Both the position numbers and the translations under genes were made by a program. 64,000 bases of DNA, taken from the IMG/VR virus record IMGVR_UViG_3300031673_000001; one strand, written 5' to 3'. Under the pieces are notes generated by a model that saw only the letters and a program-made list of their open reading frames with translations, had not been told where the DNA came from and did not search any database. Below are positions 52,287-63,952 of the stretch, one piece after another. Source of the DNA: a virus. Taxonomy: Duplodnaviria; Caudoviricetes. Position 1 is the first letter of the stretch. The number at the start of each line of letters is the position of its first letter.

Positions 52287-52364
52287 GGTCCAGTAGCTCC
52301 AGTGGTTAGAGCAGGAAACTCTAAATTTCCGTTTGCGAGGGTTCGAATCCCTCCTGGACCACCA
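52287..52364 (+). tRNA. amber suppressor tRNA (anticodon CUA)
   Basis: GGAAA-CTCTAAA-TTTCC; canonical D and T arms; CCA. Confidence 0.88.
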
Positions 52365-53620: not shown

Positions 53621-54994
53621 ATGTTCATCCCCAACAACATAAATCTTCTATATATAGAAGATGATGAGGAAAATGCAAATCTTATTCTGTCATTTTTAAA
53701 ATTATCTGAATATACAAAATTTAATACAACTCATAAAAGTACATTAGAACAAGGTTTAGACTATATTACAGATAACTGTATTTCTACTTGTAATAACACT
53801 TGTAAAACTCAAAATATTGAAAACTGTGGAACAGATGTTATTTTATTAGATCTAGTTTTACAAAATAGTCGAGGAGTTGATACATATAAATCAGTTTTAG
53901 AAAAATGCCCCTGTATTCCAATTGTTATCATATCTGGATATGAACAAATGGCATATGAATGTGTTAAACTAGGAGCTCAAGACTATTTAGTAAAACCCCA
54001 TATTAATCCAGGTTTAATTATCAGATCATTGGTATATGCAATTGAAAGAAATAATCTAGAAAACTCAAAAATACAAGCTGAAAAGAAATTTAGAGAAGTT
54101 ATTTATGCAACTCCAATTGGTTTTCATAATTATGAACTAAAAGAAGAAGATCTAATATTTATAGGTTATAATCCAGCAGCAGATCGAATACTAAAAATTG
54201 ATCATAAACAATTATTAGGAAAAACAATTGATCAAGCATTTCCCTCTCTAACTAAAATGAAAATTCCTGAAAAATATAAAATAGTTGCAAAAACAGGCAA
54301 ACCATGGGAATCACAAATTTTAGAATACGAAGACCATAATATTAAAAAAGCTTATTTTAAAATACATGCATTTAGAACATACCCTGGTTCTATAACCTCT
54401 TCATTTGAGGATATTACAGAGCAAATAATAGCAACAGAAAAACTAGAATATAGTGAAAAAAGATTTAGAAACCTAGTTGAAATAACAGGTGCAGGAATAT
54501 ATGAAATAGATCTCACTAATGGAAAATTTACTTATGTAAATCATGTTATGTGTAAACAAACTGGATATACTAAAGAAGAACTTTTTGAAATTGGACCTTC
54601 TGGACTTTTAACTCAAAAAAGCTATCTTGACTGGGTTGATAGATGGGAAAGATTTACTGATCCAGAATATATTAATGGAGGAGCTTATGATGGTCCATTT
54701 CAATATGAAGCTATTGCAAAAGATGGTTCTCATCTTTGGTCATTAGTTATAGCAGAATTTGTAATGGATAAAAATAAAAATATAACCAAAGCAAATGTTG
54801 TTGCTATTGATATAACGAAACAAAAATTAATAGAATCTCAATTAAAGAAAAAAGAAGATATTATATTCAATCAATTAGAAGATAAAATACATCAATGGAG
54901 GGATGAAATAACCGAAAGATCTTCAGTTGAATTTCAAAAATTAAAAGACATGGACAATAAAATAATATCCATTAGTAATCAAATTGTGGAGTAA
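53621..54994 (+). CDS. response-regulator receiver plus two PAS domains, no output domain
   Basis: YIEDD, ILLD, IISG, GAQDYLVKP; N.AA..IL and YVN..MC..TGYTKEEL PAS signatures. Confidence 0.85.
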   Translation: MFIPNNINLLYIEDDEENANLILSFLKLSEYTKFNTTHKSTLEQGLDYITDNCISTCNNTCKTQNIENCGTDVILLDLVLQNSRGVDTYKSVLEKCPCIPIVIISGYEQMAYECVKLGAQDYLVKPHINPGLIIRSLVYAIERNNLENSKIQAEKKFREVIYATPIGFHNYELKEEDLIFIGYNPAADRILKIDHKQLLGKTIDQAFPSLTKMKIPEKYKIVAKTGKPWESQILEYEDHNIKKAYFKIHAFRTYPGSITSSFEDITEQIIATEKLEYSEKRFRNLVEITGAGIYEIDLTNGKFTYVNHVMCKQTGYTKEELFEIGPSGLLTQKSYLDWVDRWERFTDPEYINGGAYDGPFQYEAIAKDGSHLWSLVIAEFVMDKNKNITKANVVAIDITKQKLIESQLKKKEDIIFNQLEDKIHQWRDEITERSSVEFQKLKDMDNKIISISNQIVE

Positions 54995-60279: not shown

Positions 60280-60483
60280 ATGACTAAACCATATCATTGT
60301 TTATTTTGTGGAAGAGAAAATAAAAAAGTTAAAAAAATGTTCTGTTCAGAAGAAACCAAATGTATTTGTAATGAATGTTTAGATCTTTGTAAAGAGATCG
60401 ATGAAAATGGTGAAAAGAAAATAGTTATTAATCTAAATATACCAACGTTGAAAAGAATTGATCATCCAGACATTGTAGCATGA
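60280..60483 (+). CDS. ClpX-type C4 zinc-finger small protein
   Basis: CLFCGRE...VKKM......CICNECLDLC.EI. Confidence 0.75.
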   Translation: MTKPYHCLFCGRENKKVKKMFCSEETKCICNECLDLCKEIDENGEKKIVINLNIPTLKRIDHPDIVA

Positions 60484-60862: not shown

Positions 60863-61615
60863 ATGGAAGATGTAGCAGTAAATTTGCCCAATGGTGATAT
60901 TACAACAGATAAAGATAAATTAAATCAATTATTAGATTCAAGTTATCCTTTACTACAAAAATTTAGAGAGTTATGCCCTGGTTCTTATAAACACTCTCAA
61001 TCAGTATCTTCCATGGTGGAAGGAATATCACTATCACTAGGTTTAAACGTTACTTTTATGAAAGTAGCATCTCTTTATCATGATATTGGAAAAATGTTTA
61101 ATCCAAAATATTTCACTGAGAATCAGTTAGAAGATGAGAATATCCATGATAAACTAGATGCAAAAATTAGTTATCAATATATTTCAAGACATATTTCAGA
61201 TACTGCATTGATATTATTAAATGATGAAAACTTTCCAAGAGATTTGATTGAAATAATTACACAGCATCATGGTACAACTGTTATTAAATACTTCTTTGAT
61301 AAATCAGGAAGTGATATAGAAGACAACTTTAGATACAAGTCAAAGAGACCAAAAAAAATTGAATCCATGTTATTAATGATATGCGATTCTATAGAAGCTA
61401 AGTCAAGATCTCTTGTTCAAAGTGGTAACTTTGATCCAACTGAAACCATAGAAGAAACTATTAATAATCTTCTAAGTGATGGACAATTGGATGATGTTGT
61501 AATGAGACTTGGAGATTTACAAAAATTAAAAGACGGACTAGCAAAAGAACTAGAAGGAACCTACCAAAAAAGGGTTAATTATTCTAAAGCAAAAGATGAA
61601 GTAAAATCTGAATAA
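60863..61615 (+). CDS. stand-alone HDIG/HD phosphohydrolase of the PgpH (7TM-HD) type
   Basis: PGSYKHS, YHDIGKM.NPKYFTENQ, QHHGTT...YFF, FRY....P, MICDS.EA.SRSL; start re-assigned to ATG 60863. Confidence 0.85.
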   Translation: MEDVAVNLPNGDITTDKDKLNQLLDSSYPLLQKFRELCPGSYKHSQSVSSMVEGISLSLGLNVTFMKVASLYHDIGKMFNPKYFTENQLEDENIHDKLDAKISYQYISRHISDTALILLNDENFPRDLIEIITQHHGTTVIKYFFDKSGSDIEDNFRYKSKRPKKIESMLLMICDSIEAKSRSLVQSGNFDPTETIEETINNLLSDGQLDDVVMRLGDLQKLKDGLAKELEGTYQKRVNYSKAKDEVKSE

Positions 61616-61958
61616 TAACTCATACCATCTTGTGCCAGAAGATCCAAAATCCTGGGACTCCCATTTTTGAATGGATTAAGAGTCACCAGAAAGGATTCTT
61701 CTGGCACAACTTTATTGAAAGATATTATGGAGTGGATAGATATGCAACAGAAAAGAATATTAGTCATATTAGTATTTCTTTTTTTATTTATATCTTGTGC
61801 TAAAAAATATACAATTAATCACGATCATCCATATCATCCTTCTCCTGCTATAAAATATAACTGTCCATATGATAGCTGTCCCTATCCACCATTTTTTCAT
61901 GAACACAAAGGATATGGCAGACATCAACATGAATATAAAGGCGAATATGAATAATAGT

Positions 61959-62046: not shown

Positions 62047-62125
62047 GGGATAGTAACTCAGCTAGGATTAGAGTAACTGACTTTTAATCAGTAAGTCGTG
62101 GGTTCGATTCCCACCTGTCCCACCA
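62047..62125 (+). tRNA. tRNA-Lys(UUU)
   Basis: ACTGA-CTTTTAA-TCAGT, CCA. Confidence 0.92.
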
Positions 62126-62463
62126 TTAAAACGACCCAGACACTCAGGACATCTTTCTAATAAATCCCTGAGTGCCTTATTTTTATCAACTTCCCAATAC
62201 TGTTTTTCTTGAGATAAATCTAAAATACAAGCACATTCTTCTTCACACATATCACTCTTATGATTATATCCTCTATTAATCATTTCTTCTTTCAAATCTT
62301 CATGTCTTTGATATAATACACGTGGTTCAAATAAATTATTCTTAAAATATCCATCTAATTTTTTTTGCTTCTTTAATGATCCGAGAAACATATGCATCTC
62401 TAAATGTTCCCCACATAAATGCTTCTGACACATAATCTTTGGATCACATAACCACATTCTCAT
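62068..62463 (-). CDS. pyrimidine-dimer DNA glycosylase (endonuclease V-like) family protein
   Basis: MRMW......C.KHL.GEH.E.H, RHE.L..EM..RGY.H; start re-assigned to 62463; 3' end overlaps tRNA-Lys antisense. Confidence 0.65.
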   Translation of the reverse strand: MRMWLCDPKIMCQKHLCGEHLEMHMFLGSLKKQKKLDGYFKNNLFEPRVLYQRHEDLKEEMINRGYNHKSDMCEEECACILDLSQEKQYWEVDKNKALRDLLERCPECLGRFNGGTGGNRTHDLLIKSQLL

Positions 62464-62464
62464 C

Positions 62465-62752
62465 TTACCAAGTTCCTTTCGCCTGTCTCTTCTTCCTTTC
62501 CATAGATAATTCAAGTCTTAATTTTGTAATACAAGTGTGCTTGATCTTGCCAGTTCTAAATCCAGTTCCTGTTAGATAGTTCATTACCACTCTTATCTTA
62601 TCATTAGATGTGCTAGATATGGGACCCAAATACTTTCTCAATCGAGCACAACACCATTCAGGATCCTCTTTCCATTTTCCTAAAAGACTCTTACGAACAG
62701 CTTGCCACTCTGGACTTTTAACCAATACATTTTTTGGATTTTCATCACTCAT
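62465..62752 (-). CDS. hypothetical protein
   Basis: 95 aa ORF with RBS. Confidence 0.6.
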   Translation of the reverse strand: MSDENPKNVLVKSPEWQAVRKSLLGKWKEDPEWCCARLRKYLGPISSTSNDKIRVVMNYLTGTGFRTGKIKHTCITKLRLELSMERKKRQAKGTW

Positions 62753-63352: not shown

Positions 63353-63618
63353 TACATAATTCCCCCAGACGGTTTAAAACTAACACCTATTCTGACCATT
63401 GAAATAATTTTTCTTGATCTCTTTAACTGATCAAACTTTTTCCAAAATTTCTGATTACCAAAAACCTTACGATAAATTGGGCAAGTTTCAGAATAATCAA
63501 TATAACCATTATCATTCACACAAACAGAACCACAAGCAAATGTACTATCTAACCAATAGTGTATCTTATTATATGTCAACCCACTTACCCTCTTCCAATT
63601 TACATCTATATGAATCAT
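63352..63618 (-). CDS. hypothetical protein
   Basis: 88 aa ORF coupled to the endolysin. Confidence 0.45.
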   Translation of the reverse strand: MIHIDVNWKRVSGLTYNKIHYWLDSTFACGSVCVNDNGYIDYSETCPIYRKVFGNQKFWKKFDQLKRSRKIISMVRIGVSFKPSGGIM

Positions 63619-63952
63619 CGTCAGAATGAGTCGTTGATACTTCTATAAATACACAACCATATTCTGTTTCTGATGTAAATCTATGTCTAATATAAGGTTT
63701 TATCCTGAATAATTCTCCGGGTCCTAAGATTTCAAATGTATGCTCCTCACCTTTAACATAATCAAGATGTAGAAATCCATCTAATACATAAAATGTCTCA
63801 TCTTTAATTTTGTGATAATGAAACTCACCCTTTGAAGACCATTTTTCAAAAGCAACATATATCTTCTTTCCACAATATCCAACATTCTCTTCATTGACAT
63901 TAGCAAACCAAATCTCATGTCCCCATGTTTTCTTCACAAATTCTCCTGTCAT
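63569..63952 (-). CDS. cupin-domain protein (sugar isomerase-like)
   Basis: KKTWGHEIW, HYHKIKDETF, HRF, EVST.HSD.DSYR. Confidence 0.8.
   Translation of the reverse strand: MTGEFVKKTWGHEIWFANVNEENVGYCGKKIYVAFEKWSSKGEFHYHKIKDETFYVLDGFLHLDYVKGEEHTFEILGPGELFRIKPYIRHRFTSETEYGCVFIEVSTTHSDDDSYRCKLEEGKWVDI

What the first reader, a model, noticed from the sequence alone, without database searches (positions are those of the whole stretch)
60863..61615. Soluble, stand-alone PgpH-type HD domain: candidate cyclic-nucleotide signal eraser
Seen: the protein reproduces the cytoplasmic HD domain of 7TM-HD (PgpH/YqfF) proteins (PGSYKHS, HDIGK..NP.YF.ENQ, QHHGTT, D..EA..RSL) but lacks the extracellular and transmembrane parts. 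Established: PgpH hydrolyses c-di-AMP. Inference: an unregulated phage enzyme that depletes c-di-AMP or CBASS/type III CRISPR cyclic oligonucleotides, i.e. a possible anti-defence nuclease unrelated to Acb1.
Basis: partly seen in the sequence, partly recalled or inferred. Interest (0 to 1): 0.66.

Follow-up and report, generated by a model that had tools for sequence, protein, structure and literature searches.

The report
Phage soluble PgpH-type HD phosphodiesterase
An uncultured giant phage, like many other uncultured large phages, carries a membrane-free copy of the catalytic domain of the bacterial enzyme PgpH, which destroys the signalling molecule c-di-AMP; the phage probably uses it to erase that signal in infected cells, and I found no paper that describes or tests this.

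Summary
Window 60863-61615 (+) encodes a 250-aa soluble protein. It matches the whole crystallised HD domain of Listeria PgpH (PDB 4S1B, E 3e-39; AlphaFold model pLDDT 92, TM 0.89-0.92). All seven metal ligands and the catalytic Lys and Asp are kept. There is no membrane segment.

The window is a distant T4-like jumbo phage (contigs up to about 237 kb) from soil and marine-sediment metagenomes. The protein belongs to a large family of stand-alone 234-273-aa proteins, found on 49 IMG/VR viral contigs and in hundreds of metagenome clusters. In trees this family is one clan (support 99), apart from all sampled cellular 7TM-HD proteins. It occurs in unrelated jumbo-phage lineages, is patchy within the window's own lineage, and has no conserved neighbour. 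No GenBank phage record carries it.

Best reading: a constitutive enzyme that cuts c-di-AMP to pApA and collapses the host pool. New preprints on 3'3'-c-di-AMP "guard" defences (PanDA, Panoptoo) make the family timely.

This scan has noted the same protein type at least seven times on other DNA, and one note was followed up with the same conclusion. Interest 0.55. Novelty: new variant of a known kind. Enzyme activity and host are untested.

The parts
60863..61615 (+). Gene for the 250-aa soluble PgpH-type HD-domain protein (P0001; 28.5 kDa, pI 5.2)
   Evidence: ORF and translation; PDB 4S1B E 3e-39 over the whole domain; Pfam HD and TIGR00277 HDIG; AF2 model and Foldseek; no TM segment
60852..60865 (+). 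Ribosome-binding stretch (AAGGGGGG) and ATG start that overlaps the TAA stop of the upstream ORF, suggesting translational coupling
   Evidence: Read directly from the sequence
60992..60994 (+). Codon for His44, equivalent to metal ligand His514 of Lmo1466
   Evidence: Alignment to 4S1B; codon check; 98-100% conserved in 193 phage-type and 191 cellular sequences
61079..61093 (+). HDIGK motif: His73 and Asp74 (= His543/Asp544, metal ligands) and Lys77 (= Lys547, stabilises the leaving-group oxyanion)
   Evidence: role of Lys547 from review PMC12072042
61118..61147 (+). E86-N87-Q88 ... H95 block (= Glu556-Asn557-Gln558 and His565 of Lmo1466). It is conserved in both phage and cellular clades and is probably part of the substrate pocket (inference)
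61190..61192 (+). Codon for His110 (= His580, metal ligand)
61265..61270 (+). Codons for His135-His136 (= His604/His605, metal ligands) in the QHHGTT motif
61385..61387 (+). Codon for Asp175 (= Asp648, which binds Fe1 and activates the bridging water nucleophile)
   Evidence: role from PMC12072042
60280..60863 (+). Context only: two upstream co-oriented ORFs with overlapping stop and start codons, a 67-aa ClpX-type C4 zinc finger and a 127-aa protein with no family match. Neither is found within 5 kb of the HD gene in the 49 other loci, so they are not partners

Best explanation
The gene encodes a cytoplasmic two-metal (Fe or Mn) HD phosphodiesterase of the PgpH type that is always active. It opens 3'3'-c-di-AMP to linear 5'-pApA. 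Because it lacks the 7TM sensor module of cellular PgpH, nothing ties its activity to envelope signals, so once expressed it should collapse the infected cell's c-di-AMP pool. From established c-di-AMP biology, the expected consequences are de-repression of K+ and osmolyte import, higher turgor, altered cell-wall homeostasis, and release of the c-di-AMP brake on Rel through DarB/CbpB. I infer that these states favour phage production or lysis. Shown here: homology, fold, intact catalytic residues, soluble stand-alone architecture, phage location, and a large, old phage-specific clade. Inferred: the substrate, the constitutive activity and the benefit to the phage.
For: (1) Whole-domain match to the crystallised PgpH HD domain (E 3e-39). 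The model superposes on 4S1B/4S1C at TM 0.89-0.92, and no other HD family comes close.
(2) His44, His73, Asp74, Lys77, His110, His135, His136 and Asp175 (= Lmo1466 H514, H543, D544, K547, H580, H604, H605, D648) are invariant or nearly so (98-100%) in 193 phage-type sequences that diverge down to about 37% identity. Nearly all positions that are at least 85% conserved in 191 cellular domains carry the same residue in the phage clade, including ENQ, His95, Ser103, Tyr158, Pro163, Arg237 and Tyr240. This points to purifying selection on the ancestral pocket.
(3) By my recollection, the enzymology in Huynh et al. 2015 (PNAS 112:E747) was done on the soluble HD construct; the paper is not held, so this is unverified here. 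What I can cite is that this domain was crystallised with c-di-AMP bound (4S1B), and that review PMC12072042 assigns c-di-AMP hydrolysis to pApA, and the catalytic mechanism, to it.
(4) The family tracks c-di-AMP synthesis. All 4 control genomes with the 7TM-HD module also have a DAC cyclase, and 5 of 5 cellular genomes holding the closest cellular relatives (Acidobacteriota, Bacteroidota, Chlamydiales, Planctomycetia, Caldisericales) encode a DAC.
(6) The family is large and phage-borne. It is on 49 IMG/VR contigs of 5-315 kb, always as a 234-273-aa ORF, with 812 metagenome clusters at E<=1e-10. It forms one clan, support 99.
Against: No enzymology exists for any member of the phage clade. 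Substrate specificity in HD enzymes can shift with few changes. A few cell-conserved positions do differ in the phage clade: Gly114 to Thr or other, Ala118 to Leu, His235 to Gln, and a 4-residue insert at 187-190. The host is unknown, so I cannot show that it makes c-di-AMP. The gene is accessory: one complete genome of the same lineage (277 kb, MCP 81% identical) lacks it, so it is not needed for the basic lytic programme. I could not retrieve the list of residues that contact c-di-AMP in 4S1B (papers not held), so pocket conservation is judged by family conservation only. Hosts with PanDA/Panoptoo-type guards should punish c-di-AMP depletion (PMC13640721).
Confidence: 0.55

Rival explanations
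1. Anti-defence eraser. The enzyme degrades immune cyclic nucleotides made on infection (CBASS 3'3'-cGAMP, cUA or c-di-AMP, cyclic trinucleotides, type III CRISPR cA3/cA4/cA6) and so blocks effector activation. It would be an enzymatic counterpart of Acb1 built on an HD fold.
For: The distribution is patchy and accessory, the gene occurs in unrelated jumbo-phage lineages, and its genome position varies, as is typical of counter-defence genes. The same phage encodes an Acb2/Tad1-type sponge about 5 kb away, so its host probably uses nucleotide immune signals. Iyer et al. 2021 (PMC7824862) predicted that other HD-superfamily phosphodiesterases of jumbo phages (HD-GYP, HD-alarmone) serve this purpose. 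HD-GYP relatives are known to cleave 3'3'-cGAMP (cited there).
Against: The pocket-forming conserved positions are those of cellular PgpH, with no sign of retargeting. There is no conserved linkage to other anti-defence genes: recurrent neighbours are DNA ligase, HNH, a ClpX-like ATPase and Rad52. The Tad1-like gene lies on the other strand in another gene block. The only confirmed immune role of 3'3'-c-di-AMP that I found is as a decoy that represses the effector, so degrading it would trigger that defence rather than block it (PMC13640721; 10.64898/2026.08.10.743927).
Confidence: 0.2
2. Another nucleotide is the substrate. The enzyme acts on (p)ppGpp, pApA or nanoRNA, 2',3'-cyclic nucleotides or (d)NTPs, as part of the phage's nucleotide-pool or alarmone control.
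For: The HD superfamily is chemically versatile: Foldseek lists dNTP triphosphohydrolases, YqeK and SAMHD1 as distant neighbours. (p)ppGpp inhibits PgpH, so it probably occupies the same site (PMC10117814).
Against: Those other HD families are far away (TM 0.41 or less, E>1e-3) while PgpH is very close. NCBIfam models for dGTPase, RNase Y and NadD-HD reach only 11-18 bits against cut-offs of 315-494. The PgpH-specific conserved positions are retained.
Confidence: 0.17
3. Non-catalytic binder or decaying gene. The protein only sequesters a nucleotide, or it is a functionless remnant of a captured host gene.
For: Phages often use sponges rather than enzymes against nucleotide signals (Acb2, Tad1, Acb4).
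Against: Every catalytic and metal-binding residue is invariant or nearly so across about 190 diverged homologues. The frame is intact in all 49 viral loci. The clade is old and diverse.
Confidence: 0.03

Closest known systems
PgpH (Lmo1466) of Listeria monocytogenes, HD domain, PDB 4S1B/4S1C; orthologue PgpH/YqfF of Bacillus subtilis
   Same: Homologous over the entire catalytic domain (35-36% identity, E 3e-39). Same fold (TM about 0.9). Same seven metal ligands plus the catalytic Lys and Asp. Same conserved ENQ, NPHD, QHHG and D-x-x-EA blocks.
   Different: It has no N-terminal extracellular 7TMR-HDED domain and no 7TM module, so it is soluble and presumably unregulated. It is encoded by a phage. 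In trees it sits in a phage-specific clan separated from all sampled cellular proteins. There is no PhoH-size or YbeY-size neighbour of the kind seen beside cellular copies. A few clade-specific substitutions are present (Gly114, Ala118, His235) along with a 4-residue insert.
HD-GYP and HD-alarmone phosphodiesterases predicted in jumbo phages (Iyer, Anantharaman, Krishnan, Burroughs, Aravind 2021, PMC7824862)
   Same: HD-superfamily phosphodiesterases carried by jumbo phages and proposed to remove host nucleotide signals.
   Different: A different HD family. Pfam HD_5 scores below its cut-off (16.2 against 27.2 bits), and HD-GYP structures align at TM 0.41 only. I did not find the PgpH type mentioned in that paper.
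Acb1 (anti-CBASS 1), the phage cyclic-oligonucleotide nuclease
   Same: It would be functionally analogous if the rival reading is right: a small soluble phage enzyme that linearises cyclic nucleotides.
   Different: By my recollection, not tested here, Acb1 has a 2H phosphoesterase fold and is metal-independent. This protein has an HD fold and a two-metal site, so there is no homology.
Soluble cellular c-di-AMP phosphodiesterases DhhP/Pde2 and AtaC
   Same: Cytoplasmic, sensor-less enzymes that degrade c-di-AMP (PMC10117814).
   Different: Unrelated folds: DHH-DHHA1 for DhhP (PMC12072042), and an unrelated family for AtaC by my recollection. They are cellular housekeeping enzymes, not viral ones.
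Phage sponges that bind 3'3'-c-di-AMP (Acb4, Acb2) and the guard systems PanDA/Panoptoo
   Same: Phage factors that lower free c-di-AMP. The guards show that bacteria monitor the loss of this molecule.
   Different: Sponges sequester the nucleotide without turnover. This protein is predicted to destroy it catalytically. Whether it triggers these guards is untested.

Membership tests
PgpH-type HD domain (catalytic domain of 7TM-HD proteins) | Sequence homology across the whole roughly 215-residue HD domain | tested here: met
   phmmer against PDB: 4S1B E 3e-39, query 27-240 aligned to chain 4-220. In the library of 1.84 billion representatives, the first full-length proteins outside the short clade are 600-850-aa proteins with the match at their C terminus.
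PgpH-type HD domain (catalytic domain of 7TM-HD proteins) | Two-metal site ligands His514, His543, Asp544, His580, His604, His605, Asp648, plus catalytic Lys547 | tested here: met
   His44, His73, Asp74, His110, His135, His136, Asp175 and Lys77 align to them and are invariant or nearly so in the family. The roles of Lys547 and Asp648 come from PMC12072042. The full ligand list is from my memory of Huynh et al. 2015.
PgpH-type HD domain (catalytic domain of 7TM-HD proteins) | Three-dimensional fold of the PgpH HD domain | tested here: met
   AF2 model pLDDT 92, pTM 0.86. Foldseek: 4S1C/4S1B TM 0.89-0.92 (target-normalised), rmsd 1.9-2.4 A; next family TM 0.41.
Full-length PgpH / 7TM-HD receptor (Pfam PF07697 + PF07698 + PF01966) | N-terminal extracellular 7TMR-HDED domain and seven-helix membrane module | tested here: not met
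   Only PF01966 is found. The stop-to-stop frame is 273 codons. Maximum hydropathy is 1.23. PF07698 is absent from four HD-bearing phage records, three of them 98-100% complete. All 49 viral homologues are 234-273 aa.
Full-length PgpH / 7TM-HD receptor | Cellular operon context: a PhoH-size gene upstream and a YbeY-size gene downstream | tested here: not met
   Window neighbours are a ClpX-type zinc finger, an unknown 127-aa ORF and a small lipoprotein-like ORF. A cellular-type copy in a contaminated 'phage' record shows 340-aa, 732-aa and 159-aa ORFs in a row. Naming those ORFs PhoH and YbeY rests on my knowledge of the B. subtilis operon.
c-di-AMP phosphodiesterase (functional class) | Hydrolysis of 3'3'-c-di-AMP to 5'-pApA | not testable with these tools
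   Needs enzymology. The support here is indirect: conservation of the active site and of family-conserved positions, and co-occurrence of the cellular family with DAC cyclases.
HD-GYP cyclic-dinucleotide phosphodiesterases | HD-GYP domain signature (Pfam HD_5) and fold | tested here: not met
   HD_5 scores 16.2 bits against a cut-off of 27.2. The best HD-GYP structure has TM 0.41-0.45 and 16-17% identity.
Known phage anti-CBASS or anti-cOA enzymes (Acb1, AcrIII-1 ring nuclease) | 2H phosphoesterase fold (Acb1) or DUF1874 ring-nuclease fold (AcrIII-1); demonstrated cleavage of immune cyclic oligonucleotides | tested here: not met
   The fold is HD. There is no PHROG match at all. PADLOC gives only weak generic HD matches to Cas3 (E 1e-5). 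Activity on immune signals is not testable here. The fold assignments for Acb1 and AcrIII-1 are from my recollection.

The most novel reading that the evidence does not exclude
The stand-alone phage PgpH-type HD proteins are a large, undescribed class of catalytic immune-evasion enzymes. They would destroy cyclic-dinucleotide immune signals (3'3'-c-di-AMP, cUA or cGAMP, perhaps cyclic oligoadenylates). They would also be the natural 'degrader' triggers that DAC-based guard systems such as PanDA/Panoptoo evolved to detect, which would tie housekeeping c-di-AMP signalling into the phage-bacterium arms race.
Probability: 0.2. Interest if true: 0.8.

Novelty: new variant of a known kind. Interest (0 to 1): 0.55.

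Why it matters
c-di-AMP is an essential or near-essential second messenger in most bacterial phyla outside the classical Proteobacteria. It controls potassium and osmolyte balance, the cell wall, and the link to (p)ppGpp. In the searchable literature I found no virus reported to degrade it enzymatically. A phage-specific enzyme family in hundreds of uncultured large phages would be a new way of taking over host physiology.

It would also be a ready-made natural trigger, or a target of selection, for the newly described defences that watch for loss of 3'3'-c-di-AMP. In practical terms, a small soluble sensor-free PgpH domain would be a convenient genetic tool to deplete c-di-AMP in vivo.

The limits are plain. 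The activity is predicted from homology, the host is unknown, and the general idea that jumbo phages carry HD-type phosphodiesterases against nucleotide signals was already proposed in 2021.

Tried and rejected
- **Expression:** the run search listed no RNA holder for this stretch, so I did not use read laying and assign no expression data or timing.
- **Promoters and terminators:** sigma-70-like sites were no more frequent than in shuffles and no terminators were found. TATAAATA (the T4 late-promoter motif) is enriched in the window (25 against 12.7 expected) but does not mark this gene. Timing is left open.
- **Host inference failed:**
  - No whole genome is held for the window.
  - Cluster look-ups gave one organism name only, a Vallitaleaceae MAG for a 73%-identical homologue on a 51-kb contig. 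I treat this as a possible binning artefact.
  - Names for the nearest cellular proteins were absent.
- **Donor lineage:** the phage clan attaches to the cellular tree by a long branch with no specific sister phylum, so I name no donor.
- **PF24729 (Acb2/Tad1) in five other HD-bearing phages:** nothing rang anywhere, including the controls, so the search is uninformative.
- **Papers not held:** the primary PgpH structure paper (PMC4343097) and the c-di-AMP structural review (PMC7102992). I therefore could not map the residues that contact the adenines.
- **Cultured-phage relatives:** the 8 tblastn hits in GenBank phages are 31-36% identical. The two I inspected are 732-aa and 490-aa cellular-type ORFs in 'UNVERIFIED' records, which points to bacterial contamination.
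- **Partner protein rejected:** the two translationally coupled upstream ORFs are not found near the HD gene in any of the 49 other loci.
- **Split gene rejected:** no 7TM module was found elsewhere in four HD-bearing phage records.
- **Second copy rejected:** there is none in the window.

Full report
**What is there.** Window 60863-61615 (+) is a 250-codon ORF. Its ATG overlaps the TAA of the preceding ORF and follows a G-rich ribosome-binding stretch. The product, P0001, is 28.5 kDa and acidic. It has no hydrophobic stretch that could span a membrane: the maximum 19-residue hydropathy is 1.23, inside the catalytic core. Pfam finds only the generic HD domain (1e-12), NCBIfam finds the HDIG domain (1e-13), and PHROGs finds nothing.

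Against all PDB sequences, the only real match is the HD domain of Listeria PgpH (Lmo1466, 4S1B/4S1C). The E-value is 3e-39, and the alignment covers the whole crystallised domain. An AlphaFold2 model built on a 42-sequence alignment is confident (pLDDT 92). It superposes on 4S1C/4S1B at TM 0.89-0.92 and about 2 A. The next best folds, HD-GYP proteins, reach only TM 0.41.

**Active site.** I aligned the sequence to the 4S1B chain and anchored the numbering on Lys547 and Asp648, whose roles are described in review PMC12072042. Both residues give the same offset. On that numbering, His44, His73, Asp74, Lys77, His110, His135, His136 and Asp175 correspond to His514, His543, Asp544, Lys547, His580, His604, His605 and Asp648.

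I compared 193 phage-type sequences with 191 cellular HD domains, using position-based weights. These catalytic residues are conserved at 98-100% in both sets. Nearly every position that is at least 85% conserved in the cellular set carries the same residue in the phage set. Examples are Gly40, Tyr72, Pro81, Phe84, Glu86-Asn87-Gln88, His95, Ser103, Pro125, Gly137, Tyr158, Pro163, Glu167, Glu178-Ala179, Arg182, Gln208, Arg237 and Tyr240.

The exceptions in the phage clade are few:
- Gly114 becomes Thr or other residues.
- Ala118 becomes Leu.
- Ala38 becomes Cys, and Ala61 becomes Leu.
- His235 becomes Gln.
- Four residues are inserted at 187-190.

This is the pattern of an enzyme under purifying selection that has kept its ancestral pocket.

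**Where it sits.** The window is phage DNA. It carries a family-B DNA polymerase, portal, T4-type major head protein, DnaB helicase, RtcB ligase, a GH108 endolysin and 25 tRNA genes between 40.1 and 62.1 kb. The head protein and polymerase are only 23-28% identical to those of any GenBank phage. Contigs carrying the identical HD protein reach about 237 kb. This is therefore an uncultured, distant T4-like jumbo phage. Near-identical DNA is found in soil and marine-sediment metagenomes.

About 5 kb beyond the window's end, on the other strand, the same genome has an Acb2/Tad1-type sponge gene, together with MazG, dCMP deaminase and related genes.

**The family.** The word-indexed search returned 812 clusters at E<=1e-10. 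The best 120 are all 237-283 aa and 66-83% identical. The exhaustive profile-free search of 1.84 billion representatives found 5,956 relatives. The closest are mostly further short proteins of about 230-270 aa (37-56% identical) plus a few fragments. Only after them come the classical 600-850-aa 7TM-HD proteins, which carry the match at their C terminus (33-41% identical).

A scan of IMG/VR with the family alignment gave 49 viral contigs of 5-315 kb, with GC 24-42%. In each one, the homologue is a stand-alone frame of 234-273 aa.

In 185,579 species-representative prokaryote genomes, no hit exceeds 39% identity. The 80 best hits are almost all long proteins, from Acidobacteriota, Bacteroidota, Chlamydiota, Planctomycetota, Caldisericota, Ignavibacteriota and others. 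Of these 80 frames, 76 span 523-989 aa stop-to-stop with the HD domain at the C terminus. Three of the remaining four are cut at a contig end. The fourth is a 319-aa frame in an Acidobacteriota MAG.

GenBank phages hold only 8 weak hits. The two I opened are 732-aa and 490-aa cellular-type genes in unverified records, which points to contamination. I found no isolated phage that carries this gene.

**Phylogeny and distribution.**
- In a FastTree of 206 domains, 88 of 90 short proteins form one clan, including all 43 distinct viral-contig sequences (support 99).
- In an IQ-TREE of 60 phage-type and 80 named cellular domains, the two sets are separated by a single branch (SH-aLRT 99). No particular phylum is sister to the phage set. 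The stand-alone form therefore arose once, or very few times, and then diversified in phages.
- It is not confined to one phage lineage. Among ten large HD-bearing records, four have a head protein 79-87% identical to the window's and two have one only 22-24% identical. Two complete genomes with terminal repeats (276 and 315 kb) have no detectable homologue of that head protein.
- Within the window's own lineage the gene is accessory. Two complete genomes were found through the head protein rather than through the HD gene. One (312 kb) has the HD gene at 59% identity. The other (277 kb, head protein 81% identical) lacks it.
- The gene has no conserved neighbour. The two upstream ORFs that are translationally coupled to it here occur next to it nowhere else. 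The recurrent neighbours in other phages are NAD-dependent DNA ligase, an HNH endonuclease, a ClpX-like ATPase and Rad52.
- The 7TM module is absent from four phage records that were searched whole, so this is not a split gene. Five phage records also lack a DAC cyclase.

**What it most likely does.** PgpH hydrolyses c-di-AMP to pApA through its cytosolic HD domain, which was crystallised with c-di-AMP bound (PMC12072042; 4S1B). By my recollection, the biochemistry in Huynh et al. 2015 was done on that soluble domain alone; I could not retrieve the paper to check.

The cellular family co-occurs with c-di-AMP synthesis wherever I looked. The four control genomes with the 7TM-HD module (B. subtilis, Synechococcus, Bacteroides, Thermotoga) are all among the 11 of 14 controls that have a DAC. 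All five genomes holding the closest cellular relatives also encode a DAC.

The best reading is therefore a sensor-less, constitutive c-di-AMP phosphodiesterase that collapses the host's c-di-AMP pool. By established c-di-AMP biology (PMC10117814), this should open K+ and osmolyte uptake, raise turgor, perturb wall homeostasis and release the brake on Rel. [quoted passage not shown] The substrate and the benefit are inferences. I put about 0.7 on c-di-AMP hydrolysis as such, and 0.55 on the full statement.

It is possible, but it has no direct support. Three observations favour it:
- The gene is patchy and mobile among phages.
- The phage clearly faces nucleotide-based immunity, since it carries a Tad1/Acb2-like sponge.
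- Iyer et al. 2021 (PMC7824862) predicted other HD families of jumbo phages to be counter-nucleotide enzymes.

Three observations count against it:
- The pocket looks ancestral.
- There is no anti-defence gene linkage.
- The only confirmed immune use of 3'3'-c-di-AMP is as a constitutive decoy that keeps a toxic effector off (PanDA, PMC13640721; Panoptoo, 10.64898/2026.08.10.743927). A c-di-AMP-degrading enzyme would set that defence off rather than disarm it.

That last link is what makes the family timely. Those guards were shown to respond to sponges, and a catalytic degrader carried by many phages would be an obvious natural trigger.

**Novelty and prior notes.** In the searchable literature I found no description of a phage-encoded PgpH-type or any c-di-AMP phosphodiesterase. 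The general concept was anticipated for other HD families in 2021.

Within this scan, the same kind of protein had already been noted on at least seven other stretches of DNA. One note was followed up with the same conclusion (e1-5337536). My tests were run independently and agree with it. They add:
- the single-clan phylogeny against named cellular phyla;
- the spread across unrelated jumbo-phage lineages;
- the accessory status within the window's own lineage;
- the lack of conserved partners;
- the DAC co-occurrence checks;
- the link to the 2026 guard-system preprints.

I class it as a new variant of a known kind: a known catalytic domain in a new, sensor-free viral architecture.

Noticed in passing
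window 61667-61954 (+): A 95-aa ORF lies directly downstream of the HD gene. It has a strongly hydrophobic N terminus ending in a lipobox-like ...FLFISC (hydropathy 2.06) and a His/Pro/Tyr-rich tail. It may be a small lipoprotein, perhaps metal-binding. No Pfam, PHROG or PADLOC match.
   Followed up: partly
window 60280-60483 (+): A stand-alone 67-aa ClpX-type C4 zinc finger (PF06689, E 2e-8) sits two genes upstream. In other HD-bearing phages, a full ClpX-like AAA+ protein of about 656 aa recurs nearby (L015 3688-5658). The zinc finger might interfere with, or adapt, host ClpX substrate delivery.
   Followed up: no
L001 11564-11914 (-), about 2.4 kb beyond the window's end: An Acb2/Tad1-hairpin (PF24729) sponge-like gene sits in a minus-strand block with MazG, dCMP deaminase, dGTP_diPhyd_N and a weak YAcAr/SLOG-like ORF. 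The phage therefore probably faces CBASS or Thoeris-type signalling.
   Followed up: partly
window 52287-52364 (+): A tRNA with anticodon CUA (ARAGORN labels it 'Pyl') is a likely amber suppressor. It lies within the array of 25 phage tRNA genes.
   Followed up: no
window 62068-62514 (-) and 62047-62125 (+): A T4 endonuclease V-like pyrimidine-dimer glycosylase (PF03013, E 6e-14). The longest frame, from a TTG start, overlaps the tRNA-Lys gene on the other strand. Public gene calls use a shorter 131-aa form.
   Followed up: no
window 53621-54994 (+): A 457-aa phage protein has a response-regulator receiver domain and faint PAS hits (public Pfam record). It is a host-type signalling protein in the tRNA region.
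   Followed up: no
window 63569-63952 (-): A 127-aa cupin (PF07883, E 4e-9) shows a sub-threshold resemblance to cyclic-nucleotide-binding domains (E 0.0075). This is probably just the shared beta-roll.
   Followed up: no
GenBank OR846595.1 53411-54109 (L059) and MT835511.1 5445-6128 (L060): These records are labelled as phage, but at these places they carry cellular-type long pgpH genes (732 and 490 aa), each followed by a ybeY-size ORF. The contigs are probably bacterial contamination of phage preparations or viromes.
   Followed up: partly
L081 4001-4678 (Acidobacteriota MAG, 606-kb contig): This is the only one of the 80 closest cellular loci where the HD frame is short (319 aa stop-to-stop) without being cut by a contig end. 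It could be a frameshifted gene or a rare cellular stand-alone form.
   Followed up: no
IMG/VR records G016 (277 kb, terminal repeats) and G021 (312 kb, terminal repeats): These are two complete genomes of the window's own lineage (head protein 81% and 74% identical). They differ in carrying the HD gene: it is absent in G016 and present in G021. They form a natural presence/absence pair for comparative work.
   Followed up: partly
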